Positions 28,246 through 63,754 of a stretch of DNA of 64,000 nucleotides are shown here, piece by piece; position 1 is the stretch's first letter, and the number at the start of each line of letters is the position of its first letter. The notes under the pieces are model-generated. The model had not been told where the DNA came from. It did no database searches and saw only the letters and a program-made list of their open reading frames with translations. The DNA is from an uncultured Thermoleophilia bacterium. Its GTDB lineage: Bacteria > Actinomycetota > Thermoleophilia > UBA2241. A program made the position numbers and the translations under genes. The stretch is taken from the NCBI GenBank assembly GCA_963702475.1, contig CAVPCT010000005.1, positions 192,001 through 256,000 of the forward strand. Reading direction: 5' to 3'.

Positions 28246-28505
28246 CGCGCCCCCGCCTTCCGCCGCGCGGCGCGCAGTTCCTCGAGCGACGGAAAGCTCA
28301 AGGCACTCGCCTCGCAGAGCGTCGCGCAGTGGGAGCACCCCTCGATGCAGGAGGTCTTCGCCACGACGCGCACGCGAGCGTCGACGAGGCGGTACACACC
28401 CTGCCGGCAGAACTCGAGACACACCCCGCAGTCCGTGCAGGCGGCCTCGTCGAGGGTCGGTCCCCACTCCCTTGGCACACCATCAAGCGCGGGTGTCGCT
28501 GCCAT
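28242..28505 (-). CDS. 2x[4Fe-4S] ferredoxin
   Basis: CTDCGVCLEFC and CIEGCSHCATLC; GGAGG RBS. Confidence 0.88.
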   Translation of the reverse strand: MAATPALDGVPREWGPTLDEAACTDCGVCLEFCRQGVYRLVDARVRVVAKTSCIEGCSHCATLCEASALSFPSLEELRAARRKAGAR

Positions 28506-30469: not shown

Positions 30470-30898
30470 CTATACGCGCATGAGCTCCGCGAAGGCGTCC
30501 AGCGCGCGTCTGACAGACTCTGCATCCACAGAGTAGAAGGTCCATTTGCCGCGGATCTCCTCGCGCACCAGCCCGGCTTCGCGGAGCACGCGCAGGTGGT
30601 ACGACGCCTTGGACTGCGCGAGCCCGAAGTGGTCCTGGAAGTCACAGACGCAGATGCCGGCCGGATCGCCCTTGCCCGGCACCCCGCGCTCCGACGGATC
30701 CGGCAGCCCGCAACAAGCTCTGCCCTGCACCATGACGTCGAGCATGTTCAGCCGGATGGGATCGCTCAGAGCCTTCGCCACCCCGGTGAGCCACGCTGCG
30801 TGCGCCGCGCCCTGGGGCGGGCAGCAGACCTGCGCGCGCGGATCCACCCCGCCGCAGCAGCCGGCCCTCCCCATGTCCTCCACCTGGCTCCGGGTCAT
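30470..30898 (-). CDS. arsR: ArsR/SmtB family repressor
   Basis: KALSDPIRL, CVCD, QSKASYHLRVLREAGLV; extra CC pairs; divergent from arsM. Confidence 0.88.
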   Translation of the reverse strand: MTRSQVEDMGRAGCCGGVDPRAQVCCPPQGAAHAAWLTGVAKALSDPIRLNMLDVMVQGRACCGLPDPSERGVPGKGDPAGICVCDFQDHFGLAQSKASYHLRVLREAGLVREEIRGKWTFYSVDAESVRRALDAFAELMRV

Positions 30899-31020
30899 CC
30901 TCCACCTCCCGACGTCACCACAAGTTGTGTTGATGTGGGGTTGACTGCGATCCTCGTCAGTGTACCATCATAGGCAAGAGATTTGATTTGACCGCGAGAT
31001 CGAACCATCGAGGAGAGACG

Positions 31021-31878
<858 letters not shown>

Positions 31879-32075
31879 CCCCGGGCGGACAGGGGTACTC
31901 GACTCCTCGCGTCGGAAGGCGACCCTCCACAGCGTCGCGGCCGATGAGGCACGCGCCGGCGCGTACGACGATGGCCTCTTCCCCACCCTGGTCCTGGCGT
32001 TCGGAGCCTTGGGAGCCGCCGCGGACAGGTAGCCGCAGTCGAACCGGGTCTCGGGTGTACCGGAGCCACGGCCGA

Positions 32076-32411
32076 CTACTGCTCGTGGGTCACCGCGATC
32101 GTCATCGAGTCGGGCAGACCGAGGGCACACGCCACCTGCAGCGCCTTGAGCAGACCCAACGGGACCGGGCACCAGGCGTACGAGCCCTTGAGGCTCTCCC
32201 TCATCAAGGTGTGCAGCGGGCTCTCGCCACGCCAGTCCATCTCAGCGTAGGCGTCGAAGGGACCGTGCTTCTCCAGCGCCTCGGCCAGCACCGCCACGTG
32301 CTCACACCGCGAATCGACGACGAACCGCGCCTCTCGTCCGCCCTCGATGCTGGCGGTGACTGTCGCCGTGAACCCGCAGGTTCCGGGCTCGATCAAGGCT
32401 CGCGCTTGCAT
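32076..32411 (-). CDS. conserved Cys-containing protein (DUF6951-like)
   Basis: PGTCGF...SRC...CPVPLGLLKALQVACALGLP. Confidence 0.7.
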   Translation of the reverse strand: MQARALIEPGTCGFTATVTASIEGGREARFVVDSRCEHVAVLAEALEKHGPFDAYAEMDWRGESPLHTLMRESLKGSYAWCPVPLGLLKALQVACALGLPDSMTIAVTHEQ

Positions 32412-32430
32412 GAGCACCTCCTCATCGTGG

Positions 32431-33237
32431 TCACTCCGCCTCCGGGTCCACGACCCCGAGACCTGCGCAGACGGCGAGCAGCGCATCCTTCAGCTCGCCG
32501 CGGTCGCCTGCGAACACCGGTAGGCAGCCACGAGGGTCGGCGTCACCTCGCCAGACCGCCCAGGCGAAGGCCATGCACGTCGCTTCCCCGCACTCCCGGC
32601 AGTTGGTGCCCGGCAGGCGCTTGTAGACCTCGAGTGCGGGCGGACGCCGGCGCGTCTCGGTCGACGGTGTGATGTCCGCCCTGCGCGACCAGACGCCGTT
32701 GACCAGACAGCGCACTCGCTCGAGGCTCGCCCAGGCGTCCAAGATGTCGTCGGCCTTGGCGATGCCGATGCGGTCACGGAAGAGCGAGACCATGCGGTGC
32801 CCGTCCATGTAGGTGAACACCGGCACCGACGGCACGTAAGAACCCTTGGTCACCTCGGCGTTGAGATACGGCAACGCCTCCGCGACGTCGCCGGAGAAGT
32901 GCGCGATCAGGCGGAGCCGCGCCGCGTCGGCGACGCAGGGCGCGAGCACCACGATGGCCACGCGGCCCGTCACATCCTCGGCGAACTCGGCCGGCGCCGT
33001 CTCGGGAACCGCGCCACCTGGCGGGCGGAACTCGACCCAGCCGGCGCTCATCAGGTCGAGTCCTCCCCTCTCGAGATAGGCGGCGCGATCCTCCGGCGTG
33101 AGCACGATCGCCGGCGAGCCCACCCGCGCGTACCCGGGGTCAGGCGAGATCACCCGGTGCGGCAGGCCGAGTCGCCGCAGCAGCTCCAGGGCGCGATCGG
33201 CTTCGGCGCGGTCGCCGAACGTGGTGAGCGCGTCCAC
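32431..33237 (-). CDS. Fe-S-binding protein (putative Fe-S cluster domain, COG4871-like)
   Basis: PCVAD, LPYLNA, LPGTNCRECGEATCMAFA...C. Confidence 0.8.
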   Translation of the reverse strand: MDALTTFGDRAEADRALELLRRLGLPHRVISPDPGYARVGSPAIVLTPEDRAAYLERGGLDLMSAGWVEFRPPGGAVPETAPAEFAEDVTGRVAIVVLAPCVADAARLRLIAHFSGDVAEALPYLNAEVTKGSYVPSVPVFTYMDGHRMVSLFRDRIGIAKADDILDAWASLERVRCLVNGVWSRRADITPSTETRRRPPALEVYKRLPGTNCRECGEATCMAFAWAVWRGDADPRGCLPVFAGDRGELKDALLAVCAGLGVVDPEAE

Positions 33238-33256
33238 GGCCCGTGCCCCGCGCCGC

Positions 33257-34414
33257 TCAGAGCACCGCGTTGAACAGGAAGCCGACGATCATGATGCCGG
33301 CGCCGACCACACCCAGGAAGGTGAAGATGAGCGGCCACTTCAGGACCTTCTTGAGGATGATGGTCTCCGGCAGCGACAGAGCGATGACGGCCATCATGAA
33401 GGCCAGGACGGTGCCCAGCGCCGCGCCCTTCTCGAGCAGCGCCTCCACGATGGGGATGATGCCGGCGGCGTTCGAGTACATGGGGATGCCGAGCAGCACC
33501 GCCAGCGGCACGCTCCACCAGGCGTCGGCGCCCATGATCCCGGCCATGAAGTTCTCCGGCACGTAGCCGTGGATGAGTGCGCCGACGGCGATGCCGGCCA
33601 CCACGTAGGGCCATACCTTGCCGACGATGTCCTTGACGGCCTTCCAGGCGTAGGACATGCGGCCGGCCCACGAGAGCTCCTCGCCGGCCGCCGCCTCGCC
33701 CATGCGCACCTCGCGCACCCAGTCCTCTATGTAGCGGTCCATGCCGAGACGGCCGATGACCCAGCCGGCGACGATGGCGATGGTCAGGCCGGTGATCAGG
33801 TACAGCGCGGCGACCTTCCAGCCGAACAGTCCATAGAGCAGCACCAGGGCGATCTCGTTGACCATGGGCGCGGCGATGAGGAACGAGAACGTCACGCCCA
33901 GCGGGATGCCGGCTTCCACGAAGCCGATGAACAGCGGCACCGCCGAGCAGCTGCAGAACGGAGTGACGATACCGAGGCTCGCGGCCATCACGTTGCCGGT
34001 GGTCTCGCGCCGCCCGCGCAGCAGTGCGCGCGTACGCTCGGGGCTGAAGAACGAGCGCACCACGCCCACGCCGAACACGACGAGAGTGAGCAGCAGCATC
34101 ACCTTGACGGTGTCGTAGACGAAGAACTCGAGCGCCGAGGCCCAACGGGTGTCCGGAAGGGCCAGCAGGTCGTGGAACAGCCAGACGACGAGCGGCAGCC
34201 AGAAGTGATAGACGACCGCCCAGACGCCCACCGCAAGCACCAGACGGAGCCACAACGGCAGGCGGAGCCACACCCGCACGGGCAGGCGCCGCGTCCCTTC
34301 GTCGCGCGGCGCCTCCGCCGCCGGCGCGTCGCACGCGCACCGGGGCATGGCGGGCGGCGTGCCGCGCGCGGGCTCGCCGGCCGCCGGAGCGGTGTCGAGG
34401 GCGGTCTCACTCAT
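33257..34414 (-). CDS. arsP: ArsP/DUF318 permease
   Basis: FFVYDTVK, TPFCSCSAVPLF, PMYSNAAG, LSLPE. Confidence 0.88.
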   Translation of the reverse strand: MSETALDTAPAAGEPARGTPPAMPRCACDAPAAEAPRDEGTRRLPVRVWLRLPLWLRLVLAVGVWAVVYHFWLPLVVWLFHDLLALPDTRWASALEFFVYDTVKVMLLLTLVVFGVGVVRSFFSPERTRALLRGRRETTGNVMAASLGIVTPFCSCSAVPLFIGFVEAGIPLGVTFSFLIAAPMVNEIALVLLYGLFGWKVAALYLITGLTIAIVAGWVIGRLGMDRYIEDWVREVRMGEAAAGEELSWAGRMSYAWKAVKDIVGKVWPYVVAGIAVGALIHGYVPENFMAGIMGADAWWSVPLAVLLGIPMYSNAAGIIPIVEALLEKGAALGTVLAFMMAVIALSLPETIILKKVLKWPLIFTFLGVVGAGIMIVGFLFNAVL

Positions 34415-34420
34415 CGCGCG

Positions 34421-35197
34421 TCACTCATCCACTGCGCCCGGCGCGCTCACGTGCCGCGGAACCGCGGCCGGCGGCCCCGCGAAGCTCGTGATCAGCGGCG
34501 TTGCCGCGAGCCATCGCTGGAGGCGGTCGTGGTCGTAGGGCACGCGCACGAACTCGACGAGGCCCGGCGTACCGAGGTTGGCCGGATCGACGACGGCGTA
34601 GCACACGCGCCAGTCGCCGTCCTTGGGCCGGCCGCCACTGCCGACATTGACGAACGTCGTCGCGCCCACCGTGCGCGCGTACGGCACGTGCGTGTGCCCG
34701 AGGAGGATGGCAGGGTACGGGTACTCGGCGGCCATGCGCTCCATCGCGGACGCCGGCCTGTCCTCGAAGAGGTACTCGTTGATGCGCCGCGGGCTGCCGT
34801 GCACGGCGAGCAGGTCTGCGCCCGGCGTCTTCAGCAGGAAGTGGTCGTCGAGCGTGCGCAGGTAGGCCTTGGCCTCATCACTCACGGCCCCCTGCGTCCA
34901 GGCAAGGGACGCCGCGCCCTCCGCGCGCTGCTCGTCGGTCTTGTACACGCAGCCGCAGTCGCCGGTCTCGAAGCCGATGCCCTGGTCGTAGTTGCCCATG
35001 AGCGACGGGATGCCGCGGTCGCGCACGAGGAGCGCGACCTCGTTGGGATACGGCCCGTATCCCACGAGGTCGCCCAGCGAGATCGTCGCCGGGACGCCGC
35101 GGTCCTCAATGTCCGCCAGGATGGCCTCGAGGCCCGGCAGGTTGCCGTGCACGTCGCTGAAGACCGCAAACGGCGTGGCTATCGTCAGTGCGCGCAC
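34421..35197 (-). CDS. calcineurin-like metallophosphoesterase
   Basis: SDVHGN, GDLVGYG, GNYD, CGC insert, HGSP, GHTH, NVGSGGRPKDG. Confidence 0.9.
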   Translation of the reverse strand: MRALTIATPFAVFSDVHGNLPGLEAILADIEDRGVPATISLGDLVGYGPYPNEVALLVRDRGIPSLMGNYDQGIGFETGDCGCVYKTDEQRAEGAASLAWTQGAVSDEAKAYLRTLDDHFLLKTPGADLLAVHGSPRRINEYLFEDRPASAMERMAAEYPYPAILLGHTHVPYARTVGATTFVNVGSGGRPKDGDWRVCYAVVDPANLGTPGLVEFVRVPYDHDRLQRWLAATPLITSFAGPPAAVPRHVSAPGAVDE

Positions 35198-35225
35198 GAC
35201 GGACCCCTCGTTTCATCGACCTGTG

Positions 35226-35265
35226 TTTATATCAACTTACCTTGACCATAAACGGATGTCAATGT
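35226..35265. promoter_or_regulatory. AT-rich divergent promoter with probable ArsR operators
   Basis: AT-rich island between divergent ars operons with imperfect palindromes (TCAA..TTGA; CAT..ATG). Confidence 0.4.
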
Positions 35266-35309
35266 AACGTCGAGAGGACCTCAGCCCCACCCGACAGGAG
35301 ACCACGACG

Positions 35310-36425
35310 ATGGCAGCGAGCAGCACCAGGCGCCTCTCGTTCCTCGACCGCTACCTCACCCTCTGGATCTTCCTCGCCATGTTCGCCGGGGTGGGGCTCG
35401 GCTACCTGTTCATCGGCCTGCCCGGGTTCATCCAGCGGTGGTCTGTGGGCACCACCAACATCCCCATCGCCATCGGCCTCATCGTGATGATGTATCCGCC
35501 CCTCGCGAAGGTGCGCTACGAGGAGCTCGGCGACGTCTTCCGCGACTGGAGGATCCTGGGCCTCAGCCTCGTGCAGAACTGGCTCATCGGCCCGTTCGTG
35601 ATGTTCTTCCTGGCGATCATCTTCCTGCACGACTACCCCGAGTACATGGTCGGGCTCATCATGATGGGCCTGGCGCGCTGCATCGCCATGGTCATCGTCT
35701 GGAACCAGCTCGCCAAGGGCGACACCGAGTACGCTGCCGGACTCGTGGCCTTCAACAGCGTCTTCCAGGTGCTCTTCTACAGCGTCTTCGCCTGGGTCTT
35801 CGTGACCAAGCTGCCGCCGCTCTTCGGGCTCGAGGGCGTGGCCGTCGACATCACCATCGGGCAGATCGCCAAGAGCGTCTTCATCTACCTGGGGATCCCG
35901 TTCATCGCCGGCATGCTCACGCGCTACATCGGGCTCAAGACCAAAGGCCGCGAGTGGTACGAGCAGAAGTTCATCCCGCGGATCAGCCCGCTCACGCTGA
36001 TCGCGCTGCTGTTCACGATCTTCGTGATGTTCAGCCTCAAGGGCGACCTCATCATCGAGCTGCCGCTGGACGTGCTGCTCATCGCCATCCCGCTGTCCCT
36101 GTACTTCGTCATCATGTTCTTCGTGAGCTTCTTCATGGGACGCAGGATCGGCGCCGACTACTCGAAGACGGCCACCCTGAGCTTCACCGCGGCGAGCAAC
36201 AACTTCGAGCTCGCGATCGCCGTCTCCATCGCCGTCTTCGGCCTCAACTCCGGCCAGGCGTTCGCCAGCGTGATCGGCCCGCTTGTCGAGGTGCCGGTGC
36301 TCATCGGCCTCGTGAGCGTGGCGCTCTGGCTGGGCAAGAAGTACTGGCACATCAGCGACGACCCTGTGCCGGAGGCGGTGCAGGCAGGCTGCGACGAGGT
36401 GGGGTGCGACCCCACGAGGAGTTGA
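35310..36425 (+). CDS. acr3: Acr3 arsenite efflux transporter
   Basis: [48 protein letters not shown]. Confidence 0.96.
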
Positions 36426-47077: not shown

Positions 47078-47220
47078 GTCCCGCCGGGCCACAGCGCGCG
47101 CCCTGAGCTCACCGCGTGGGGTCTCCTCCCCGCCTCATCTCCCCTCTTCACCCCATGGACCACGTCCGGTGACTAGGGCACAAGAAGGGTAGACGCGCGT
47201 CGCGACACGAGGGGGAAGCC

Positions 47221-47766
47221 GTGGACCCGCTGGAGATCCTCAGACAGGAGCACAGGTTGGCCCTCCGGGTGGTGCGTTCGGCGCGGGACATCGTCGCCGA
47301 CAGCGCCGCGGGAGGATCGCTCGACATGGACCGGCTGGGCGAGGTCCTTGACTTCCTGCGGTATTTCGCCAACGCGTGCCACGAGCCCAAAGAGGAGGAT
47401 CTGCTCTTCACCGCCCTGCACCGCCACGGCATGGAGTGGGACAGGCCGCCCCTTCGCGACCTCCTGCGGCAGCACGAGGAACTGCGCCTCGCCCTGGACT
47501 CGGCGAGCGACTGGTCCAGGCTCGTGGACCAGGGCGTCTCCGGCGCCGTCGAGCCGCTGCTGCACGACCTGCGGCTCTCGCTCGACGTCCTCGAGGGCAA
47601 CATCGCCCTCGAAGAACAGACGCTCTTCCCGCTCGCCGGTGAACGTCTGCACCAGCGCGACCTCGACGACCTCTCGACAGCCTTCGCGGCCATCGCGTGT
47701 GACGAGGAGAACGAAGGCGTCCACGCCTACTATGCCGGGGTGGCGCGGGACCTCGCCGGCGCCTGA
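47221..47766 (+). CDS. hemerythrin domain protein
   Basis: EH, CHEPKEEDLLF, QHE, EEQTLFP. Confidence 0.85.
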   Translation: MDPLEILRQEHRLALRVVRSARDIVADSAAGGSLDMDRLGEVLDFLRYFANACHEPKEEDLLFTALHRHGMEWDRPPLRDLLRQHEELRLALDSASDWSRLVDQGVSGAVEPLLHDLRLSLDVLEGNIALEEQTLFPLAGERLHQRDLDDLSTAFAAIACDEENEGVHAYYAGVARDLAGA

Positions 47767-51870: not shown

Positions 51871-52191
51871 TCAGGTCCTGAACATGGTGAGGAGGAACAC
51901 GAGCTCCTCGCGCGCCCGCACCGCGTGCTTCAGCTCGGCCGGCATGTAGTGCAGCTTGCCCGGGCCGGCCTCGTGCTCGACGCCGTCGAGCACCACCGAG
52001 CCGGCCCCGCGCAGCACGTGGATCACGGCCGGCACGCTGGCAGTGTGCTCACTCAGCTCTTGTCCGGGCGCGAGCGTGAACAGGATGATCTTGTGGTGGT
52101 CGTTCTCCACCACCGACTTGCTGACGATGCCCTGGTCGGCTAGCTGCGTCATCTGCTCCAGGTCCACGACCACCGGGTTCGATCCGTCCAT
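51871..52191 (-). CDS. cupin domain protein
   Basis: GQELSEH...HAVRA. Confidence 0.85.
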   Translation of the reverse strand: MDGSNPVVVDLEQMTQLADQGIVSKSVVENDHHKIILFTLAPGQELSEHTASVPAVIHVLRGAGSVVLDGVEHEAGPGKLHYMPAELKHAVRAREELVFLLTMFRT

Positions 52192-52302
52192 CGATGCCTC
52201 CGACTCACGGGGATTGCCTGTCTCGAAACCTACCCATCGGAGGCCCCACCGAACTTGACCTTCGTCAGGGCGTCTGCCCCCACCCTGCTCCCCTTCACGA
52301 GT

Positions 52303-52348
52303 TTGACAGCCGCACGGTGCGGGGATACACTTTGTGACGGTCATCACA
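52303..52348 (+). promoter_or_regulatory. sigma70 promoter with overlapping CRP/Rex-type operator
   Basis: TTGACA(52303)-17-TACACT(52326) followed by TGTGA-CGGTCA-TCACA (52333-52348). Confidence 0.8.
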
Positions 52349-52376
52349 GAAGCTCTTATTTTTGAGGAGGGTCGCC

Positions 52377-52511
52377 ATGACGAATCCATTCGCAACACTC
52401 AAGCGCCTGTTCGATGGCTCGCCGGACGTCGGGGGCTCACCTCAGTCTTCCGCGCGACGAGTCGAGAAGAATTTCATGAAGTACGACCTCACCGTCGATC
52501 CGCGGTTCTGA
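52377..52511 (+). CDS. small protein 1 (44 aa) MTNPFATLKRLFDGSPDVGGSPQSSARRVEKNFMKYDLTVDPRF
   Basis: GAGGAGG RBS 6 nt before ATG, consensus promoter upstream. Confidence 0.7.
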   Translation: MTNPFATLKRLFDGSPDVGGSPQSSARRVEKNFMKYDLTVDPRF

Positions 52512-52527
52512 GAGAGGAGGCACCACA

Positions 52528-52668
52528 GTGAACTCAAGCGTCTTCCGCTCCATCGGCAGGTTCCTGGCCGACGCCGCAGAGGCCATCGGCACACCGTCGG
52601 GCGACACCCGAGGTCATGTGCGCGTCTACTCCCTCGACCGCAAGGTGGGTCGCGGCCGCAACTTCTGA
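52528..52668 (+). CDS. small protein 2 (46 aa) MNSSVFRSIGRFLADAAEAIGTPSGDTRGHVRVYSLDRKVGRGRNF
   Basis: GAGGAGG RBS 7 nt before GTG, directly after protein 1, terminator downstream. Confidence 0.68.
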   Translation: MNSSVFRSIGRFLADAAEAIGTPSGDTRGHVRVYSLDRKVGRGRNF

Positions 52669-52718
52669 GATATCTACTGGCTGCCGGCGATCTCCCCCAG
52701 CCGCCGACGGCATCCTTC

Positions 52719-52781
52719 AGGGCCTCCCGCCTCCTGACCCGGCCCCAAGACGTCAGGAAACCAGGCGGGAGGCCTTCTCTT
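52719..52781 (+). terminator. intrinsic terminator after small proteins 1-2
   Basis: GGCCTCCCGCCT/AGGCGGGAGGCC stem with inner CCTGAC/GTCAGG, then TTCTCTT. Confidence 0.65.
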
Positions 52782-52922
52782 ACCGGCCGCTGGACCCACC
52801 GCGATGGTCGACGTGCAAGCGCGGACCGGACGCAGTTCGGACAAGCCCAGACGCCAGACTCCGTGCGGGGTCGTCCCGGCAACAAGTCGGGAGCTTGACA
52901 AGCGCGACCGCGGCTCGCGTGT

Positions 52923-52968
52923 TTGACGTAGTGGTAGTTATGGAATACACTCTGTGCTCAACTTCACA
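52923..52968 (+). promoter_or_regulatory. second sigma70 promoter with overlapping CRP/Rex-type operator
   Basis: TTGACG(52923)-17-TACACT(52946) followed by TGTGC-TCAACT-TCACA (52953-52968), same geometry as 52303. Confidence 0.75.
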
Positions 52969-52998
52969 ATCAATACTCTTTAATCGGAGGAGATGGTC

Positions 52999-53154
52999 AT
53001 GAGCAGCCTCGGTCGCATGTTCGACAAGATCTTCTTCGGCGGCGGCCGCTCGGATGAGGTCTCCCAGACCGTGTCCCAGCCGTCGCCCGTCGCCCGCCCC
53101 GGCGTCGAGGACCGCGCCCGCTACGACAGCGGCACGTCGATCTACTACCACTGA
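52999..53154 (+). CDS. small protein 3 (51 aa) MSSLGRMFDKIFFGGGRSDEVSQTVSQPSPVARPGVEDRARYDSGTSIYYH
   Basis: GGAGGAG RBS 6 nt before ATG, own promoter and terminator. Confidence 0.7.
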   Translation: MSSLGRMFDKIFFGGGRSDEVSQTVSQPSPVARPGVEDRARYDSGTSIYYH

Positions 53155-53206
53155 CGCCCGCGCCGGCGCGGAGATCAGTCCTCGCCGGCGACTGACTGGT
53201 ATGACG

Positions 53207-53252
53207 AGACCCCCGGGCTCTCGACTTCTGCGAGTCGAGAGCCCGGGGGTCT
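53207..53252. terminator. bidirectional terminator
   Basis: 20-bp perfect stem AGACCCCCGGGCTCTCGACT between convergent units. Confidence 0.75.
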
Positions 53253-53347
53253 GTCTCGTTCCAAGGACAGCCGGCCAGAGCCGACGTGCTCTGCGACCGG
53301 CGGGAAGTGCTCCCGTTCCAGGACAGCCGGCCCGAGCCGGCGGGTCC

Positions 53348-54664
53348 TCAGACCGGCCGAAAGTACGCCGGATACGTGCGCGGCTTGGACTTCTTGCGCC
53401 GATACGTGTGCGCGAGCTCCAGAAAGATGCCGACGTCGCGCTCCAGGTCGCCCTGGGTACCGTCGAAGTAGAAGACCCTGATGGGCATGTTGTCGAGCTC
53501 TTTGGCCAGACTGGGATAGACGGCCTCGGTGACGATGCCGTTCATGCAGGTGAACGGGCTGATGTCGATGATGCCGTCGGCGCCCTTACCGTACAGATAG
53601 ATGGACTTGCCGCTGCTCAGCACCATCTCTCCCAGCGCCCCGGTGTACGGGAGGTACGGCTCGCTCAGCTCGAGCACCTGACCCACGTCCTCCGGCTCCT
53701 CATAGCCCACGAAGTCGTCGTGGAACGGGCCGTACAACGCGTGCTCGTCGCTGCGCATGATCCTGCTCTTGAGGTACCGGTAGGCGTTGTCCTTGGAGAA
53801 GCGCCGCTTCTGCTCGATGAGCCGGCGGCGCTGCTCGTCGTCGGTGTACCAGACCCACTCGCCGATATCGGCCAGCCAGCACTCCCCGCCCTGCTCCTCT
53901 ACCACGCGGATGAGGTCGAAGTTGGAGAAGGTGTTCTGGCGGCAGAAGATCTCGCCGACCACACCGATGAGCGGCCGCGAACGATCGTAGGCGCACGGGA
54001 TGGCGCGGAACCTGTCGCGGGCGCGCTGCATGGCCGGCAGGATCGCGGCCATGCGCTCCTTGTGCGACACGCCGTTGCTGCTGATCGCGTCACCCACCTC
54101 TACCAGACACTGCTGGTAGACCTCGTCGGTACTGCCCTTCTCCAGCTCGTACGGACGCGTCTTGAGCAGGAGCTTCATGAGGATGTCCTGCGCGAGCACG
54201 GCCCGCCACGCGGTGCGGATGAGGTCGCTGGAATAACTGCCGATGGACGAGTAGCCGTCGCTCGACGTGATGGTGATGACCGGCACGTCGTCGTATCCCA
54301 GTTCGCGGAACTTGGCGTTGACCAGGTGAAGGTACTGGCCGAAACGGCACGGGCCGTTGGCCGTGGGCATGAGGAAGGCGACGTTCTCCCGTCCCTCGTC
54401 CTCGATGATGCGCAGGAAGTCGCCGATGGTGATCTTCTGCGGGTAGCACTCGTCACCGGACGTCACTCGCCCACCGAGGTCGAGCGTGCGCTCGTCCGAG
54501 TCACTTGTGGGCCACGCGTCGAAGCCGATGGAGCGGATGGCGGCGGCGAGCAGGTACGTGCCGCCGTAGGGCATCTGCGGCAAGTAGAGCTTGCGTCCCT
54601 CCAGGCCGAAGTCCTTGATGGCCTGCTTGATGCGCTCGTCCTGTTTGACGCTACTTGAGGGCAC
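53348..54664 (-). CDS. 2-hydroxyacyl-CoA dehydratase-like reductase subunit (PlsR-like)
   Basis: GDECYP, GPCRFGQY, IGVVGEIF, PFTCMNG; overlaps the upstream activator gene. Confidence 0.8.
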   Translation of the reverse strand: MPSSSVKQDERIKQAIKDFGLEGRKLYLPQMPYGGTYLLAAAIRSIGFDAWPTSDSDERTLDLGGRVTSGDECYPQKITIGDFLRIIEDEGRENVAFLMPTANGPCRFGQYLHLVNAKFRELGYDDVPVITITSSDGYSSIGSYSSDLIRTAWRAVLAQDILMKLLLKTRPYELEKGSTDEVYQQCLVEVGDAISSNGVSHKERMAAILPAMQRARDRFRAIPCAYDRSRPLIGVVGEIFCRQNTFSNFDLIRVVEEQGGECWLADIGEWVWYTDDEQRRRLIEQKRRFSKDNAYRYLKSRIMRSDEHALYGPFHDDFVGYEEPEDVGQVLELSEPYLPYTGALGEMVLSSGKSIYLYGKGADGIIDISPFTCMNGIVTEAVYPSLAKELDNMPIRVFYFDGTQGDLERDVGIFLELAHTYRRKKSKPRTYPAYFRPV

Positions 54665-57600
54665 CTGCCACCTCCTCTTCCGGCGGGGCGCAGAGATGCT
54701 CGCGTTCTTCTCCCGCCTGCGACCACCAGCGCAGGAAGCCCTTGCTGTCCAGGTACGCCTCGCAGCGCGTCATCGCGCCGGCGTCGTTCTGGTGCTCGTC
54801 GAACTGCAGGGTGAGGTACGGCTTGCCGGAGGCCTCGCGCACGTAGTGCTTGATGTACGAGTCCGGGCCGCACTTGAAGTTGGTCATGTAGATGAGGTGC
54901 AGATGATCCTTGCCGTGCACGAACGTCGCCGCCTGCAGGATCTTGCGCCCGTAGTTCCAGTACATGTTGGGCACGATCGGGTTGATGTCGATGCCCTTGA
55001 TGGGCAGGAAGTCGAGCGGTATCAAGTTGACCCCGTAGAACTTGCGAAGCTTGCGCGGGATGTCCATGTTGATGCCCTTGTCGTACATGTTGTACGGGCG
55101 CCCTATGAGCACGATGCCGAGCTCGCCGGAGCGCTCAAGGGTCGCAAGCGCCTCGTGGCCGGCCTTCTGCAGGGCGGCGCGGAACTCATCCTGGGCCACG
55201 AAGGCGCGGTCGAGTGCCGCGCGCAGACGACCCTTGCCCACGCCCAGCTGGGCGGCCATGCCGGCGAGGTCACGCACGAGGCCTTCCCGGCCGTCGCGGA
55301 ACATGACGCGCGGCGCGAGGAACCTGTGCTTGTACTGCTCGAGCGCCGGCGCCTGACGGACGACGAACGGCAGGGTCTGCCCCCAAGGACACGCGTGCGA
55401 GTTGTACTGCATGAACTCGCTCTCCTCGTTGACCTGGTTGGGCACGAAGACCCAGTCAACGCCCTCTCGCAGCAGCCACTGCGCATGCCCGTGGGCCACG
55501 CGGATGGGGAAGCAGGGCTCGGCCACGGTGAGGTCGACGCCGGCCTCGCGGATCTGCTTGTCGCTCTCCGGCGAGAGGACGGGGCGGTGGCCCAGCTCGG
55601 CGAAGAACGTCGCCCAGAACGGCAGCCTGTCGTAGGTGTACATGGCACGCGCCAGGCCGACCGTGGGCGCCGTCTCGGGCAGCCTGGCTCGCGCCGCCTC
55701 GTAGGGCGCCATGAGCTGCTGCTGGCGGAAGGCGATGAGGTCGGCGATCACGGGCTCCTTGTCCACCTTGGCGGGCTTGCGGTACCTGTCGGAGCACTTG
55801 TCGCCCCAGTAGGTCTTCTGGCCCTCGATGGTGAACTGGCGCACGTCGCACTCGTTGGAGCAGGCGTGGCAGACGAAGTCGACCACGGTGTAGTCCACCT
55901 CGCCCAGGTCCCATCCGCGGAACGTGCTCGGCTCGCCGGTGCGCTGCACGCGCTCGCGAGCCAGCAACGCCATGCCCAGCGCGCCCATGACGCCGTTGTA
56001 CGGCGGCACGATGATCTCCTTGTCCAGGATCTGGCTGAAGGCCGCCGCGACGGCGTCGTTGTAGGCCGTCCCCCCCTGGAAGAAGATCGTGTCGCCGACG
56101 GTGCGCTCGCGCACCAGGCGGTTGAGGTAGTTGGTGGCGATGGAGAAGGCGAGGCCGCCCACCAGGTCGTCGCGGCGCGCGCCGCGCTGCTGATAGGCCA
56201 TCACGTCGCGCTCCATGAACACGGTGCAGCGCTCGCCGAGACGGACGGGCGCCTGAGAGCTCAGCGCCAGCTCCGCGAACTCGCCGATGATGTTGATGCC
56301 GAGCTTCTCGGCCTGCTCTTCCAGGAAAGAGCCGGTACCCGCCGCGCAGGCCTCGTTCATGGCGAAGTCGACGACGATGCCGTCCTGCAGGCTGATGAAC
56401 TTGGAGTCCTGGCCGCCGATCTCGAAGATGGTGTCTACCTGGCGGCCGATCTTGCGCCCGATGAAGTCGGCGCCCGTCTTGTGGGCGGTGATCTCGTCGG
56501 TGATGATGTCGGCCCCGCAGAGCTCGCCGATGAGCTCGCGTCCCGAGCCGGTGGTGCCCACACCAAGCAGGTTGAGGCGCGGGCCGATCTCGGCGTAGAT
56601 GTCGTGCAGGCCCTTGGTGACGACCTCCACGGGCCGCGCGTCGGTCTTGGTGTAGATCTCCTTGATGACGCGCCCCTCGTCGTCGACGACGACGAGGTTG
56701 GTGGACACGGAGCCGATGTCTATGCCCATGTACGCGTCGACGACCCCGACGTCGTCGGCGAACGTGAACGGCTCGGCCATGTCGCGCAGGAGCGTGACCT
56801 TGGCCATGGAGAGCGGCTCCGTCACGGGGAAGTCGGCCGCCGGGAGGCGGCTGGCGTCGAGCGACGCCAGCTCCGCCCGGGCCGACTCGTACTCGGCCTC
56901 GATGAGCGCGGCGCCGACGGCGCCGAGCGCCGCGTGATAGTCGGGGATGAAGAGATCGCCGGGCTCGAGGTCGAAGGCCTCCTGGAGCGCCTGCACGGCG
57001 CCCTTGTTGGCCGCCACCCCGCCGATGAAGGCGATGGGCGGCTCCACGACCTTGCCCTTGGCGATGGTGCCCTTGAAGTTGCGCATCACCGCGTCGCACA
57101 GCCCCCGGAGCACCTCGGGCGGCTGATAGCCCTTCTGCTGGGCGTGGATCATGTCCGACTTGGCGAACACGCTGCAGCGCCCGGCGATGCTGGCCGCCTT
57201 GCCGGCATCGAGCACGATGTCGCCGACATCCTCGATGTCGTAGAGGAGGCGGCTCGCCTGCTGGTCCATGAAGGAGCCGGTGCCGGCGGCGCAGTCGCCG
57301 TTGGTCTGGTAGTCGGTGATGCCGTGACAGCGGGTCTCCTCGTCGGGCTCGAGCCTGATGAACTTGGACGTCTCGCCGCCCATCTCGAAGATGGTGCGCG
57401 TCTGCGGCGCCAGGGCGCTGACCCCGCGGGTGATGGCCTTGAACTCGTTCTCGAAACTCGCCTCGAGCGCCTGGCCGATGAGGCGACCGCCCGAACCGGT
57501 GACGCGGACGCCCTCGATCTTGCCCTCAGGCAGGACGGCCAGGAGCTCGTCGAGCAGAGCCTGGGTCGCCTCCCCGGGACTGCCCTTGATTCGCCGGTAC

Positions 57601-57770
57601 TTCGCCACCAGGACCGGACGCCCGTCGACGACCGTGAGCCCGTCGGCGGGGTTCTCGAAGAGGTCGGGATGGCTTGCGAGGAGCTGGGTGTAGAGGTCGT
57701 GGTCTTCAGCCTCGCCGGCGAGGGCCGCTTTGAGGCTGATGCAGCCGATGTCGATGCCGAGAGAAGTCAT
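54651..57770 (-). CDS. acyl-CoA dehydratase activase with two BadF/BcrAD ASKHA domains plus DUF2229 (PlsA/Ger-like)
   Basis: GIDIG..S.K/ST twice, CAAGTGSF twice, GRCSVF/ERCTVF, C..C.N.C, CFP....HGH, FKCGPDS. Confidence 0.88.
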   Translation of the reverse strand: MTSLGIDIGCISLKAALAGEAEDHDLYTQLLASHPDLFENPADGLTVVDGRPVLVAKYRRIKGSPGEATQALLDELLAVLPEGKIEGVRVTGSGGRLIGQALEASFENEFKAITRGVSALAPQTRTIFEMGGETSKFIRLEPDEETRCHGITDYQTNGDCAAGTGSFMDQQASRLLYDIEDVGDIVLDAGKAASIAGRCSVFAKSDMIHAQQKGYQPPEVLRGLCDAVMRNFKGTIAKGKVVEPPIAFIGGVAANKGAVQALQEAFDLEPGDLFIPDYHAALGAVGAALIEAEYESARAELASLDASRLPAADFPVTEPLSMAKVTLLRDMAEPFTFADDVGVVDAYMGIDIGSVSTNLVVVDDEGRVIKEIYTKTDARPVEVVTKGLHDIYAEIGPRLNLLGVGTTGSGRELIGELCGADIITDEITAHKTGADFIGRKIGRQVDTIFEIGGQDSKFISLQDGIVVDFAMNEACAAGTGSFLEEQAEKLGINIIGEFAELALSSQAPVRLGERCTVFMERDVMAYQQRGARRDDLVGGLAFSIATNYLNRLVRERTVGDTIFFQGGTAYNDAVAAAFSQILDKEIIVPPYNGVMGALGMALLARERVQRTGEPSTFRGWDLGEVDYTVVDFVCHACSNECDVRQFTIEGQKTYWGDKCSDRYRKPAKVDKEPVIADLIAFRQQQLMAPYEAARARLPETAPTVGLARAMYTYDRLPFWATFFAELGHRPVLSPESDKQIREAGVDLTVAEPCFPIRVAHGHAQWLLREGVDWVFVPNQVNEESEFMQYNSHACPWGQTLPFVVRQAPALEQYKHRFLAPRVMFRDGREGLVRDLAGMAAQLGVGKGRLRAALDRAFVAQDEFRAALQKAGHEALATLERSGELGIVLIGRPYNMYDKGINMDIPRKLRKFYGVNLIPLDFLPIKGIDINPIVPNMYWNYGRKILQAATFVHGKDHLHLIYMTNFKCGPDSYIKHYVREASGKPYLTLQFDEHQNDAGAMTRCEAYLDSKGFLRWWSQAGEEREHLCAPPEEEVAGALK

Positions 57771-62015: not shown

Positions 62016-63437
62016 TCAGGAGACGGGTGCCTTCTCTTTGCGCGTCGCCTTGCGGATGGTGTTGGTGCGCGCCGGCGTCTCGGCCGGTTCTTCCTTCTCC
62101 GCACTCAGACAGCTCCAGATGGGGCTGTAGAGGTGGTCGACGGCGCTGGCATACTGGTCCAGCTCGTCCTGAAGGTCGGTGATCATGACGTCCCCGCCGG
62201 GGTGCGTGGGCTTCGCGCCGGTGGCGGCCACGATCTCACGCGCCTGCGTGGGATTGTCGATCCACATGCAGGGCATGAGCAGGTTGTGGTTGAACGGCTG
62301 CCGCGCGCGGATCTCCCGGAAGAAGTCCGAGTTGAACGCCTCGAGGAGGCTCACGTCGTGGATGTTGTCGGTGGCGAAGTGCGTGAAGATGCACGGCTCC
62401 ACCCAGCCGCCGCTGTTGATGTGCATGTAGTGCTTGCCGGCGATGCAGCCGTTCACCCAAGGAGCGTCGCCCCAGAAGTCGATCGGGAAGATCGGCTTGG
62501 TGTCGCGGATACGGTGGATGTCGATGCGGAACTGGTTCCGCTCCTCCGCCGTCAGCATCAGGCTGGTGTCGGGATCGCGACCCACCGGCATGTAGAGGAA
62601 ATGCCAAGCCAGCATGGCGCCCTTGGCGACGAGCGGGTCGATGAACTCGTCGCTCACTATGGCCTTCCACGTGTTGCGCGTCACCGTGCACGAGTAGCCG
62701 AACAACACGCCGGCCTCGCCCAGGTGATCCATGATCTCCATGACCTGGTCGTGTACGCCTTCGCCGCGACGCTGATCGGTGAGCTCCGGGGAGCCCTCGA
62801 GACTCAGCATGGGGGCGATATTGCCGATACGGGCCAGCTCGTCGATGGTGTCATGATCGAGAAGCGTGCCGTTGGTGAACACCTGGAAGTAGGCGTCCTT
62901 GTTCTCCTTGGCGAAGTCGAGCAGCTCGTCCCACATGAACGGCTCGCCGCCGAGCATGGTGAACAGGTAGACACCCATGTCGTTGCCCTCGTCCACGATC
63001 TTCTGCATCAGACGGCGGTCGAGGTCCTGGTCCATCTTGTATTCCGATGCGTAGCAGCCCTCACAGGTGAGGTTGCAGCGCATGGTGGGGCTCATGAGGA
63101 TCGTCGTCGGCGCATTGCAGCCCGTCGTGTCGATCAGTTCACGCCTCTTTGCCACGCCGCGAAGAAGAGTATTAACGATAAGACATTCGATGAAGCGGTC
63201 GCGGCAGCGCGGGCTGAGTCGGCTGGTGACGTGCTTGGCGATGGTGAGCGCCGGGTGGTCGTCCTGCACCTTCTCTGTGACGAAACGTACTGAGCCCTTG
63301 TACTGGTCGGGCGTGATCTTCTCCGCCAGGTTGAACGCCTTGACGATCTTGGTCTTGTCGTCGCTGGCGGCCAGCTTGAGCATCTGATTGACCACTTGCC
63401 TCTGTACCGTAGTGTAGAGGCCGTCCGTCCGGCTCAT
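62016..63437 (-). CDS. radical SAM protein (COG0535-like, resembles the membrane-spanning lipid synthase Mss family)
   Basis: CNLTCEGC, GGEP, FTNGTL, DFWGD...GCIAG..YMHIN..G.VEPC, PFNHNLLMPC..IDNP; AAGGAGG RBS. Confidence 0.85.
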   Translation of the reverse strand: MSRTDGLYTTVQRQVVNQMLKLAASDDKTKIVKAFNLAEKITPDQYKGSVRFVTEKVQDDHPALTIAKHVTSRLSPRCRDRFIECLIVNTLLRGVAKRRELIDTTGCNAPTTILMSPTMRCNLTCEGCYASEYKMDQDLDRRLMQKIVDEGNDMGVYLFTMLGGEPFMWDELLDFAKENKDAYFQVFTNGTLLDHDTIDELARIGNIAPMLSLEGSPELTDQRRGEGVHDQVMEIMDHLGEAGVLFGYSCTVTRNTWKAIVSDEFIDPLVAKGAMLAWHFLYMPVGRDPDTSLMLTAEERNQFRIDIHRIRDTKPIFPIDFWGDAPWVNGCIAGKHYMHINSGGWVEPCIFTHFATDNIHDVSLLEAFNSDFFREIRARQPFNHNLLMPCMWIDNPTQAREIVAATGAKPTHPGGDVMITDLQDELDQYASAVDHLYSPIWSCLSAEKEEPAETPARTNTIRKATRKEKAPVS

Positions 63438-63754
63438 TGATCTCCTCCTTTCACGCTTCTCCGCGCCCGTGCTCGGCGGACGCGAGGTTATCGGCCTCGT
63501 GGAGACCACGGTGAGGGGACGAGACGACGCAGCGTACTGCCGCTTGCCTCGGGACACCGGCTCCCCCCGGTGGTCTTCGAGCAACCATGCCCGACATCCT
63601 ATCACCCTCGCAGCGGGTGACGAAGGCTTTCGTGGTGTTGGGCACACTCTACTCCAGCGTCCCGGCCCCGCACGTCGGCCGTGCTGGCAACACTTCACTG
63701 GGACATTCGTCTATACGGCCCTCATGTTCATCGCGCATGCGGCCGATACCGCCT

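What the first reader, a model, noticed from the sequence alone, without database searches (positions are those of the whole stretch)
52303..53252. Cluster of three unannotated, co-regulated small proteins with a shared amphipathic N-terminus
Seen: an apparently intergenic ~1 kb holds three 44-51-codon ORFs absent from the ORF track. Each has a strong RBS, and they form two complete units (promoter-ORF1-ORF2-terminator and promoter-ORF3-terminator). They share a layout: an N-terminal amphipathic helix (LKRLFD / IGRFLAD / LGRMFD), a Gly/Ser/Pro linker, and a C-terminal segment with Tyr (VEKNFMKYD vs VEDRARYD; RVYS). Inference: a new small-protein family. They could be membrane-binding modulators of the convergent PlsA/PlsR-like lipid enzyme, or RiPP-type precursors with leader plus core. 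ORF3 ends in YYH, the biarylitide core motif, but no P450 is in this window.
Basis: partly seen in the sequence, partly recalled or inferred. Interest (0 to 1): 0.8.

Follow-up and report, generated by a model that had tools for sequence, protein, structure and literature searches.

The report
Three repressor-controlled small-protein genes
An apparently empty 1-kb gap in a soil actinobacterial genome holds three real, conserved genes for 44-51-residue proteins of unknown function that share one promoter-and-operator design, so they are probably switched on together by a metabolic or redox signal.

Summary
Three ORFs lie on the + strand: ORF1 52377-52511 (44 aa), ORF2 52528-52668 (46 aa) and ORF3 52999-53154 (51 aa). 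They form two units, each with a sigma-70-type promoter, a strong RBS and a terminator hairpin.

All three look like real genes. Evidence: codon-position GC, relatives of the same length (ORF3 16, ORF2 19), conserved blocks around a variable linker, and a syntenic ORF1-ORF2 pair in an uncultured Thermoleophilia MAG (L001).

New points:
- ORF1 and ORF2 are tandem paralogues of one undescribed family (BLASTP E 6e-8 in L001; hhalign 97%, E 1.8e-11). It has about 20 clusters at 50% identity.
- ORF3 is a separate family and is absent from L001.
- Both window promoters and the L001 promoter carry an 18-bp palindrome (TTGTG-N8-CACAA) directly after the -10 box, a repressor position. It resembles CRP and Rex boxes.

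No Pfam, NCBIfam, PDB, PADLOC or PHROGs match was found. AlphaFold2 gives an N-terminal helix and a poorly defined rest.

The RiPP and PlsA/PlsR-modulator ideas gain no support: there is no P450 and no co-transcribed enzyme, and L001 is colinear over about 20 kb. The function is unknown. My best guess is signal-induced cytoplasmic adaptor microproteins.

The parts
52303..52331 (+). Promoter P1 of the ORF1-ORF2 unit: TTGACA, 17-nt spacer, TACACT
   Evidence: 10 of 12 consensus positions match; shuffles give 0.1 sites. Aligned in register with P2 and with the L001 promoter.
52332..52349 (.). Operator O1: the 18-bp palindrome TTGTGACGGTCATCACAG, directly after the -10 hexamer
   Evidence: (I4). 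Its core TGTGA-N6-TCACA matches all 10 specified positions of the CRP consensus (PMC2844151 passage). It matches 11 of 14 positions of the Rex operator (PMC5355995 passages).
52364..52370 (+). RBS of ORF1 (GAGGAGG), 6 nt before the ATG
   Evidence: read directly from the sequence.
52377..52511 (+). ORF1: a 44-aa small protein, the ORF1-type member of the PSGD-x-RGH small-protein family
   Evidence: The L001 homologue (9828-9980) scores E 1.2e-6 in a six-frame search. Homology to the ORF2 type is supported. GC123 is .56/.47/.71.
52516..52520 (+). RBS of ORF2 (GGAGG), 7 nt before the GTG start and 5 nt after the ORF1 stop
   Evidence: read directly from the sequence.
52528..52668 (+). ORF2: a 46-aa small protein with an invariant PSGDTRGH-x-RVY centre and a G-R-x-F C-terminus
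   Evidence: 19 relatives at 61-93% identity; 19 of 19 rows of A4 are 46 aa. The L001 homologue is 52% identical. AlphaFold2 gives a helix at 2-20 with pLDDT 61. GC123 is .62/.55/.83.
52721..52774 (+). Terminator hairpin T1 after ORF2, followed by TTCTCTT
   Evidence: I13, 12-bp perfect arms; fold z -3.2, with a similarly placed hairpin in L001 (z -2.7).
52923..52951 (+). Promoter P2 of the ORF3 unit: TTGACG, 17-nt spacer, TACACT
   Evidence: 9 of 12 positions.
52952..52969 (.). Operator O2: the 18-bp palindrome CTGTGCTCAACTTCACAA, directly after the -10 hexamer
   Evidence: It matches 9 of 10 CRP-core positions and 11 of 14 Rex positions.
52986..52992 (+). RBS of ORF3 (GGAGGAG), 6 nt before the ATG at 52999
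   Evidence: read directly from the sequence.
52999..53154 (+). ORF3: a 51-aa small protein of a second family, with a conserved N-terminal helix, a variable linker, an invariant DRARYDSG block and a C-terminal [IV]-Y-[YFH]-H
   Evidence: 16 relatives at 63-98% identity; column identity is N-terminus .91, linker .51, C-terminus .88. AlphaFold2 gives a helix at 3-13 with pLDDT 63. GC123 is .58/.52/.94. No homologue lies in the 20 kb of L001.
53207..53252 (.). Terminator hairpin T2 (20-bp perfect stem), shared with the convergent gene 53348-54664(-)
   Evidence: I1; z -6.9; 0 of 200 shuffles fold as well.

Best explanation
The gap holds three genuine small-protein genes in two transcription units built on one regulatory cassette.

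The cassette reads: -35 TTGAC(A/G), a 17-nt spacer, -10 TACACT, then at once an 18-bp palindrome TTGTG-N8-CACAA, an A+T-rich leader, a GGAGG RBS, the ORF(s) and a terminator hairpin.

The proteins:
- ORF1 and ORF2 are tandem paralogues of one undescribed family of 43-54-residue proteins. The family has an N-terminal amphipathic helix, a (T)PSGD-x-RGH centre and a variable tail ending in basic and aromatic residues.
- ORF3 founds a second family: a helix, a hypervariable linker, an invariant DRARYDSG block and a C-terminal Y-x-H.
- None has a signal peptide or a membrane span. All are predicted to be largely disordered on their own.

Proposed working:
- Inferred from position: a dimeric repressor sits on the palindrome across the transcription start and blocks RNA polymerase.
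- Inferred: a metabolic or redox signal releases it. The signal would be a raised NADH/NAD+ ratio if the regulator is Rex-like, or a change in cAMP or a gas/redox ligand if it is CRP/FNR-like.
- Inferred: the three proteins are then made together.
- Guess: they act as cytoplasmic adaptor microproteins. Each would dock onto a larger partner through its helix and conserved motif and fold on binding.

My sub-confidences:
- The genes are real and under protein-level selection: about 0.9.
- The shared operator means common repression: about 0.7.
- The regulator is Rex: about 0.3. It is CRP/FNR-type: about 0.35.
- Adaptor mode of action: about 0.35.
For: Gene reality:
- The ORFs, RBSs and promoters are present.
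- Codon-position GC is coding-like, and the overlapping ORFs lack that pattern.
- ORF3 has 16 of 16 candidates at E <= 0.01. In the alignment 13 of 17 rows are exactly 51 aa.
- ORF2 has 19 of 19 candidates. All 19 rows of A4 are 46 aa.
- In the ORF3 family the conserved ends flank a variable linker: column identity .91.51 and .88.
- L001 has a syntenic ORF1-ORF2 pair.
- dN/dS between window and L001 is 0.43 for ORF2 and 0.29 for ORF1, against 0.27 for the neighbouring cupin.

Paralogy of ORF1 and ORF2:
- In L001 the two homologues give BLASTP 38% identity, E 6e-8.
- hhalign gives E 3.5e-4 for A5 against A4.
- hhalign gives probability 97.3%, E 1.8e-11 over 32 columns for A4 against A9.
- A profile search over 1.84 billion representatives gave 20 small, full-length, single-stretch hits.

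Cassette:
- The three promoter regions align without gaps from -35 to the palindrome. The palindrome abuts the -10 hexamer in all three.
- In the 64-kb window the only 2 matches to the palindrome with <= 1 mismatch are these two.
- In L001 there are 2 exact matches against 0.10 expected. One lies at the ORF1 homologue and one lies upstream of a hemerythrin gene.

Consensus boxes and repression by position:
- PMC5355995 passages describe a Rex operator downstream of the cydA1 transcription start.
- PMC2844151 passages give the CRP consensus and describe a CRP site that occludes a promoter and so represses it.

Fold and location:
- AlphaFold2 gives helices at 2-20 (ORF2) and 3-13 (ORF3), with the rest at low confidence.
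- No hydrophobic run exceeds 6 residues.
Against: - There are no expression, ribosome-profiling or peptide data.
- DNA of relatives was available for one locus only (L001), so codon-level selection rests on a single pair.
- ORF1 has an atypically low GC3 (.71, 1.4th percentile). The word-based search found only 2 proteins for it, one of them the window's own.
- Coding-like GC patterns also occur in 189 of 1745 non-coding-frame windows.
- The count of palindrome matches alone is weak: 6 of 100 shuffles reach 2 matches, and 16 of 100 do for the shorter core. The argument rests on position.
- The sites fit neither consensus cleanly. Against Rex they match 11, 11, 10 and 11 of 14 positions. Against CRP they match 10, 9, 8 and 9 of 10.
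- No Rex or CRP gene lies in the window.
- The window's own hemerythrin gene (47221-47766) has only a degenerate copy of the box.
- No partner is known.
- Part of the ORF1-type set (A9) was collected with a profile that already mixed ORF1 and ORF2 rows, so one search is not fully independent of that choice. One search is independent.
Confidence: 0.6

Rival explanations
1. They are general stress protectants in the manner of hydrophilins: small, glycine-rich, disordered proteins made under stress that act without a specific partner.
For: - They are hydrophilic and Gly/Ser/Pro-rich, with no membrane span.
- AlphaFold2 gives low confidence outside one helix.
- The promoter design points to conditional expression.
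- The comparison with hydrophilins is recalled, not tested.
Against: Invariant sequence blocks suggest specific recognition rather than bulk physical properties. These are PSGDTRGH-x-RVY in 19 of 19 rows and DRARYDSG with Y-x-H in 17 of 17 rows.
Confidence: 0.15
2. They are RiPP precursor peptides encoded away from their maturase. The N-terminal helix would be the leader. The tail would be the core, for instance the Y-x-H of ORF3 cross-linked as in biarylitides, or a radical-SAM cyclophane.
For: - The C-terminal [IV]-Y-[YFH]-H has Y and H invariant in 17 of 17 rows, with the residue between them variable.
- Across the ORF1/ORF2 family the tail is the least conserved part: column identity .40, against .72 for the centre.
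- Two radical SAM/SPASM genes lie in the window, at 27073-28467 and 62016-63698.
Against: - Both units are closed by their own promoter and terminator and hold no enzyme gene.
- No P450 was found in the 47 of 51 predicted proteins scanned. The 4 left out are 54-159 aa.
- By the abstracts listed, biarylitide precursors are 5 residues long, encoded by an 18-bp gene and cross-linked by a dedicated P450.
- The SPASM gene at 62016 is also present in L001, which lacks ORF3, and it reaches no equivalog cut-off.
- Within each close family the tail is strongly conserved, not hypervariable.
Confidence: 0.08
3. They are membrane-binding modulators of the neighbouring PlsA/PlsR-like lipid enzyme (53348-54664 and 54651-57770, minus strand).
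For: - The enzyme genes are adjacent, and ORF1-ORF2 lie next to the same pair in L001.
- ORF2 and ORF3 have amphipathic N-terminal helices, with muH .83 and .76.
Against: - The genes are convergent and separated by a strong two-way terminator.
- L001 is colinear over about 20 kb, so the shared neighbourhood is not specific.
- L001 keeps the enzyme pair but has no ORF3.
- The helices are short, and 5-7% of shuffles reach their hydrophobic moment.
Confidence: 0.07
4. The ORFs are not translated. The conserved feature would be RNA or DNA, for instance a small RNA or regulatory sites.
For: - Rfam gives one sub-threshold match: Ms_IGR-5 at 52638-52782, 24.2 bits against a gathering score of 45.
- The hairpins are strong.
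- ORF1 has low GC3.
Against: - Nothing in Rfam reaches its gathering score.
- Conservation follows the reading frames: constant lengths, conservative replacements, indels in whole codons, and conserved blocks around a variable linker.
- dN/dS is below 1.
- A strong RBS sits at the right spacing before each start.
Confidence: 0.04

Closest known systems
Rex-repressed promoters of Streptomyces (ROP operator TTGTGAANNNNTTCACAA; PMC5355995, passages read)
   Same: - An 18-bp inverted repeat with TTGTG and CACAA ends.
- It overlaps the transcription start, as the ROP of cydA1 does.
- It occurs in an actinobacterium.
- In L001 the same box also precedes a hemerythrin gene, which fits a redox or oxygen theme.
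   Different: - The inner AA/TT positions of the Rex consensus are not kept. Only 10-11 of 14 positions match.
- No rex gene is in view.
- No known Rex regulon includes such small proteins, as far as I recall. I ran no search for this.
CRP/FNR-family sites (TGTGANNNNNNTCACA; PMC2844151, passages read)
   Same: - O1 matches all 10 specified bases, O2 matches 9, and the L001 sites match 8 and 9.
- A CRP site that occludes a promoter represses it, as the same paper describes.
   Different: Typical CRP sites activate from around -41.5 or -61.5. Here the box is centred just after the -10 hexamer. No CRP-family gene is in the window.
Biarylitide precursors (BytA-type; abstracts seen in the listing)
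   Same: A C-terminal Y-x-H with invariant Tyr and His.
   Different: - ORF3 has 51 residues, not 5.
- It has its own promoter and terminator.
- No P450 lies next to it or anywhere among the proteins scanned in the window.
Conserved bacterial microproteins of unknown function, found by comparative genomics of small ORFs (recalled as a class; no paper read)
   Same: - They are 44-51 residues long.
- Standard ORF tracks miss them.
- They are conserved in a narrow lineage.
- They are predicted to have one helix plus disorder.
   Different: Here two unrelated families and a tandem paralogue pair share one promoter-operator cassette. That gives a testable regulatory handle.

Membership tests
Any curated protein family (Pfam-A, NCBIfam, PADLOC, PHROGs, PDB sequences) | A profile match at or near the curated cut-off | tested here: not met
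   - Pfam and NCBIfam give 0 families at E <= 1 for all three ORFs.
- The 27 members of A7 give only 3 chance-level Pfam matches, with best E 0.22.
- PADLOC gives 0. PHROGs gives a best E of 0.02.
- PDB gives only designed helical proteins, with E about 0.004 and no passing stretch.
Biarylitide RiPP | A five-residue precursor encoded by an 18-bp gene | tested here: not met
   ORF3 has 51 residues, and 13 of 17 family rows are 51 aa. The feature is taken from the abstracts listed.
Biarylitide RiPP | A dedicated cytochrome P450 next to the precursor | tested here: not met
   No P450 family was found in the 47 of 51 predicted proteins of the window that were scanned. The immediate neighbours are a cupin and a PlsR-like protein.
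Biarylitide RiPP | A Y-x-H core at the C-terminus | tested here: met
   Y49 and H51 are invariant in 17 of 17 rows. Residue 50 is Y, F or H.
Radical SAM/SPASM-matured RiPP | The precursor is co-transcribed with or adjacent to its maturase, and the two co-occur | tested here: not met
   The nearest SPASM gene (62016-63698, minus strand) is 9 kb away and on the other strand. Four GC3-supported genes lie in between. L001 has its homologue but no ORF3.
Rex operator (ROP) | An inverted repeat matching TTGTGAANNNNTTCACAA | tested here: inconclusive
   The window sites have 3 and 3 mismatches of 14. The L001 sites have 4 and 3. These are counted by eye on the sites against the consensus. That paper reports weaker binding at 3 mismatches.
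Rex operator (ROP) | The site overlaps the promoter or transcription start of a repressed gene | tested here: met
   The palindrome starts at the base after the -10 hexamer in 3 of 3 small-ORF promoters.
Rex operator (ROP) | A Rex protein is encoded in the genome and binds the site in an NADH-sensitive way | not testable with these tools
   Only 64 kb of the genome is in view. No Rex-type family appeared.
CRP/FNR-type site | A match to TGTGANNNNNNTCACA | tested here: met
   The window sites match 10 and 9 of 10 bases. The L001 sites match 8 and 9 of 10.
PlsA/PlsR plasmalogen synthase (for the neighbouring genes) | A large protein with two activase domains plus a reductase/dehydratase domain, together with a second reductase-type subunit | tested here: inconclusive
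   - The 54651-57770(-) protein has 2 stretches of BcrAD_BadFG plus DUF2229.
- The overlapping 53348-54664(-) partner has only a weak DUF2229 match, E 0.072.
- The expected architecture comes from a figure legend of PMC12838417.
- No direct comparison with the Clostridium perfringens proteins was made.

The most novel reading that the evidence does not exclude
ORF3, and perhaps the ORF1/ORF2 family, would be a new class of stand-alone, trans-matured peptide precursors or cofactor-like peptides. The strictly conserved C-terminal aromatic motif (Y-x-H in ORF3; R-x-F or aromatic-rich tails in the others) would be oxidatively cross-linked or docked into an enzyme. Production would be gated by a redox- or cAMP-responsive repressor. 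That would extend biarylitide-type Tyr-His chemistry to long-leader precursors in uncultured Thermoleophilia that have no adjacent P450.
Probability: 0.07. Interest if true: 0.75.

Novelty: new member of a known kind. Interest (0 to 1): 0.45.

Why it matters
Small proteins are routinely missed by annotation. Here three of them, from two families that no curated library holds, can be tied to one regulatory design. That gives a direct experimental route in a poorly known, mostly uncultured soil lineage (Thermoleophilia): find the regulator that binds the 18-bp palindrome, find the signal that releases it, and pull down the partners. It also provides a clean case of a tandem small-gene duplication (ORF1 and ORF2) with linking intermediates. 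On present evidence it does not reveal a new mechanism.

Tried and rejected
- Pairwise BLASTP among the three window ORFs gave nothing significant: E 0.22, none, none. The first profile comparisons also failed. Homology of ORF1 and ORF2 showed only once the L001 sequences and the wider family were added.
- The hit of the A2 profile on the L001 ORF1 homologue (E 8.9e-6) is not used as evidence. A2 held a row (P0021) with an N-terminal extension that carries an ORF1 tail.
- ESM Atlas gave no usable lead. The best score for ORF2 was 0.80, a level that shuffled proteins reach a third of the time. ORF3 gave no hit.
- Complex prediction for ORF1 with ORF2 gave no verdict (score 0.00). It counts neither for nor against binding.
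- Of the 127 hits of the representative search, 107 are long proteins (263-4531 aa) with 3-16 short stretches on profile positions of about 15-40. Of the 8 scanned with Pfam, 7 are FG-GAP_2 repeat proteins and 1 carries Peptidase_S74. I treat them as summed repeat matches, not relatives. The other 99 were not scanned.
- tblastn against plasmids and phages gave no match for ORF2 or ORF3 in plasmids. For the family member P0064 it gave one E = 1 match in plasmids and none in phages.
- Rfam gave nothing at gathering score.
- A lasso-peptide reading (Thr at -2, then Gly with Asp/Glu at 7-9) was checked by eye on the alignment. It was dropped because no acidic residue sits at the required spacing. 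This rests on recalled rules.
The single genome-contig scan used the narrow patterns TPSGDTRGH and FLA[DE]A[AV]xA[IM]G, so loci of the wider PSGD-A-RGH family were not fetched.
- Fold searches were not run, because both models have mean pLDDT of about 61-63.
Full report
**What is there.**
The window has 70% G+C. Between the cupin gene 51871-52191(-) and the convergent gene 53348-54664(-) lie three short ORFs on the + strand:
- ORF1: 52377-52511, 44 aa, ATG start.
- ORF2: 52528-52668, 46 aa, GTG start.
- ORF3: 52999-53154, 51 aa, ATG start.

Each has a GGAGG-type ribosome-binding site 6-7 nt before its start. The promoter scan found exactly two sigma-70-like sites in 52150-53400, against 0.1 +/- 0.3 in shuffles. 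They are TTGACA-17-TACACT at 52303-52331 and TTGACG-17-TACACT at 52923-52951. The strict terminator scan found none, because there is no T run. Strong hairpins nevertheless close both units. One is at 52721-52774 (fold z -3.2). The other is a 20-bp perfect stem at 53207-53252 (z -6.9; 0 of 200 shuffles fold as well).

**Are they genes?**
Three lines of evidence agree.

Composition:
- GC by codon position is .56/.47/.71 for ORF1.62/.55/.83 for ORF2 and .58/.52/.94 for ORF3. Ten Pfam-supported genes of the window average .69/.44/.91.
- The seven longer or antisense ORFs that overlap the small ORFs or the spacer between the units lack this pattern.
- ORF3 is typical and ORF2 is at the 6.6th percentile of in-gene 45-codon windows.
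- Caveat: ORF1 is only at the 1.4th percentile.
- Caveat: 189 of 1745 windows in non-coding frames also look coding-like. Composition alone does not decide.

Relatives:
- ORF3 has 16 relatives (16 of 16 candidates at E <= 0.01) at 63-98% identity and 45-54 aa.
- ORF2 has 19 (19 of 19) at 61-93% identity.
- ORF1 has only 2, one of which is the window's own protein.
- Lengths are nearly fixed. In the ORF3 alignment 13 of 17 rows are 51 aa. All 19 rows of the ORF2 alignment A4 are 46 aa. A4 leaves out P0021 and P0036, which have N-terminal extensions, and adds the L001 homologue.
- In the ORF3 family the mean column identity is .91 for residues 1-17.51 for the linker 18-31 and .88 for residues 32-51. 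This pattern follows the protein, not the DNA.

Synteny:
- The one related locus that the genome collection gave is L001, from an uncultured Thermoleophilia MAG (143 pattern matches, 1 confirmed).
- L001 has homologues of ORF1 (9828-9980, 50 aa) and ORF2 (10001-10141, 46 aa, 52% identity) in the same place.
- Nei-Gojobori estimates for window against L001 give dN/dS of 0.43 for ORF2, 0.29 for ORF1 and 0.27 for the cupin next door. This is a single pair with high divergence.

**Family relations.**
- Within the window the three proteins are not significantly alike.
- In L001 the ORF1 and ORF2 homologues are 38% identical over their full length (BLASTP E 6e-8).
- A profile of ORF1 plus ORF2 rows (A6) was searched against 1.84 billion representatives. 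It returned 127 hits at E <= 0.001.
  - Twenty are small proteins (37-66 aa) matched once over essentially the whole profile.
  - The other 107 are long proteins matched in 3-16 short stretches. Of the 8 scanned, 7 are FG-GAP_2 repeat proteins. I set these aside as repeat artefacts.
- The small hits define a family with three parts. The first is an N-terminal helix of the form R-(V/L)-F-x-x-I-x-R-F-F-E-G-T-G. The second is a (T)PSGD-(A/T)-RGH centre. The third is a variable tail. One subgroup carries the ORF1-type tail D-F-M-x-H-D-L-T-G-S-A-R-F-Y.
- The ORF2 family (A4) against the ORF1-type set (A9) gives hhalign probability 97.3% and E 1.8e-11 over 32 columns. The narrower comparison gave E 3.5e-4.
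- Some A9 rows were found with the mixed profile, so one search is the independent support.
- ORF3 shows no detectable relation to this family. It has no homologue in the 20 kb of L001, and there are no further copies in the window.

**The shared cassette.**
Aligning the three upstream regions (window P1, window P2, L001) needs no gap from the -35 box to the end of an 18-bp palindrome. That palindrome begins at the base after the -10 hexamer. The three sites are:
- TTGTGACGGTCATCACAG (52332-52349).
- CTGTGCTCAACTTCACAA (52952-52969).
- TTGTGTCGCGCGACACAA (L001 9783-9800).

In the whole window these two are the only matches to TTGTG-N8-CACAA with <= 1 mismatch. The expected number is 0.46, and 6 of 100 shuffles reach 2. 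L001 has 2 exact matches against 0.10 expected, and 0 of 100 shuffles reach 2. The second L001 match lies just upstream of a hemerythrin gene. The window's hemerythrin gene (47221-47766) has only a degenerate version.

The counts alone are modest. The identical position in three promoters is what makes the element convincing. A dimeric protein bound there would cover the transcription start, so I infer repression.

The box matches the CRP consensus TGTGANNNNNNTCACA (PMC2844151, passages) at 10 and 9 of 10 bases in the window and 8 and 9 in L001. It matches the actinobacterial Rex operator TTGTGAANNNNTTCACAA (PMC5355995, passages) at 11, 11, 10 and 11 of 14. Both papers describe repression from such positions. 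No Rex or CRP/FNR gene is in the window, so I cannot tell which regulator acts.

**What the proteins look like.**
- There is no signal peptide and no membrane span. The longest hydrophobic run is 3-6 residues.
- The net charge is +2, +4 and 0 for ORF1, ORF2 and ORF3.
- For ORF2, AlphaFold2 with the family alignment gives a helix at 2-20 and a weak hairpin at 32-43 (pLDDT 61).
- For ORF3 it gives a helix at 3-13 with the rest coil (pLDDT 63).
- The highest 11-residue hydrophobic moments are N-terminal in ORF2 (.83) and ORF3 (.76), but lie at residues 26-36 in ORF1. In each case 5-7% of shuffles reach them.
- No curated family, solved structure, defence-system model or phage family matches. The Atlas gave no usable lead.
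- A full-text search for five family motifs found 0 papers. This is a narrow search and no proof that the family is unpublished.

- The neighbours do have a PlsA/PlsR-like architecture. The 1039-aa protein has two BcrAD_BadFG stretches plus DUF2229. An overlapping 438-aa partner follows it. Compare the domain scheme in a legend of PMC12838417 and the account in PMC9702350.
- They are convergent to ORF3, behind a two-way terminator.
- L001 is colinear with the window across about 20 kb. The shared order is membrane protein, hemerythrin, HhH-GPD/MarR, cupin, small ORFs, PlsR-like, activase-like, amidase, SPASM enzyme. The shared neighbourhood therefore carries no specific information.
- L001 has the enzyme pair without ORF3.

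- Neither unit contains an enzyme gene.
- No P450 appears in 47 of the 51 GC3-supported ORFs. The 4 not scanned are 54-159 aa.
- The nearest radical SAM/SPASM gene is 9 kb away on the other strand. It reaches no equivalog cut-off and is kept in L001.
- By the abstracts listed, biarylitide precursors are five residues long and sit with a dedicated P450. Both features were tested here and not met.
- What remains is a striking detail. The last three residues of ORF3 are Y-[YFH]-H, with Tyr and His invariant in 17 of 17 rows.

**Best reading.**
The locus holds three real small-protein genes under one repressor-type cassette, made together in response to a metabolic or redox cue. They probably act by binding larger partners. 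The first part is well supported. The regulator's identity and the mode of action are inferences. The attempt to test ORF1-ORF2 binding gave no verdict.

**What stayed unchecked.**
- Loci of the wider family, because the only genome scan used narrow patterns.
- Whether ORF2 and ORF3 relatives sit on the same contigs. It could not be verified.

Noticed in passing
L001 4005-4022 and 4070-4621; window 47150-47766: In L001 an exact copy of the TTGTG-N8-CACAA box (TTGTGACGGAGGGCACAA) lies about 50 nt upstream of a hemerythrin-domain gene. The window's hemerythrin gene (47221-47766) keeps only the right half of the box. This hints at an oxygen or redox regulon, but the box is not conserved between the two genomes.
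   Followed up: partly
protein P0021 (relative of ORF2): One 64-aa relative of ORF2 starts with an extension that begins MKYDLT, which is the tail of ORF1. In that genome the end of ORF1 and ORF2 therefore lie in one frame. This could be a natural fusion or frameshift, or an assembly error. No DNA was available to decide.
   Followed up: no
window 7304-7477 (+): A further unlisted small ORF of 57 aa with a GGAGG-type RBS and coding-like GC (.64/.59/.90). It is His- and Gly-rich. It was not searched.
   Followed up: no
window 53254-53342: Two direct copies of a unit of about 33 nt (TC(T/C)CGTTCCA joined to a 23-nt unit), 56-57 nt apart. They lie between the ORF3 terminator and the stop of the convergent gene (D1 and D17). 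L001 has no counterpart by eye. Unexplained.
   Followed up: no
window 52891-52905: A second TTGACA box (GAGCTTGACAAGCGC) lies about 30 nt upstream of promoter P2. It resembles the -35 region of P1 (D8). It may be a remnant of a duplication that created the ORF3 unit, or an alternative promoter.
   Followed up: no
window 27073-28467 (-) and 62016-63698 (-): Two radical SAM/SPASM genes. The first resembles the tungsten-cofactor oxidoreductase maturase model (266.8 bits, below the cut-off of 380). The second matches no equivalog. The window also holds DUF362, Fe-S proteins, the activase-type ATPase and hemerythrin. Together these suggest an organism equipped for low-oxygen chemistry.
   Followed up: partly
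window 30470-36425: A cluster that looks arsenic-related: an ArsR-type regulator, a SAM methyltransferase, DUF6951, an Fe-S protein, an ArsP permease, a phosphoesterase and an SBF/ACR3-like transporter.
   Followed up: no
window 52638-52782 (+): A sub-threshold Rfam match to the actinobacterial sRNA Ms_IGR-5 (24.2 bits against a gathering score of 45, E 0.0034). It covers the end of ORF2 and terminator T1. It probably reflects only the hairpin.
   Followed up: no
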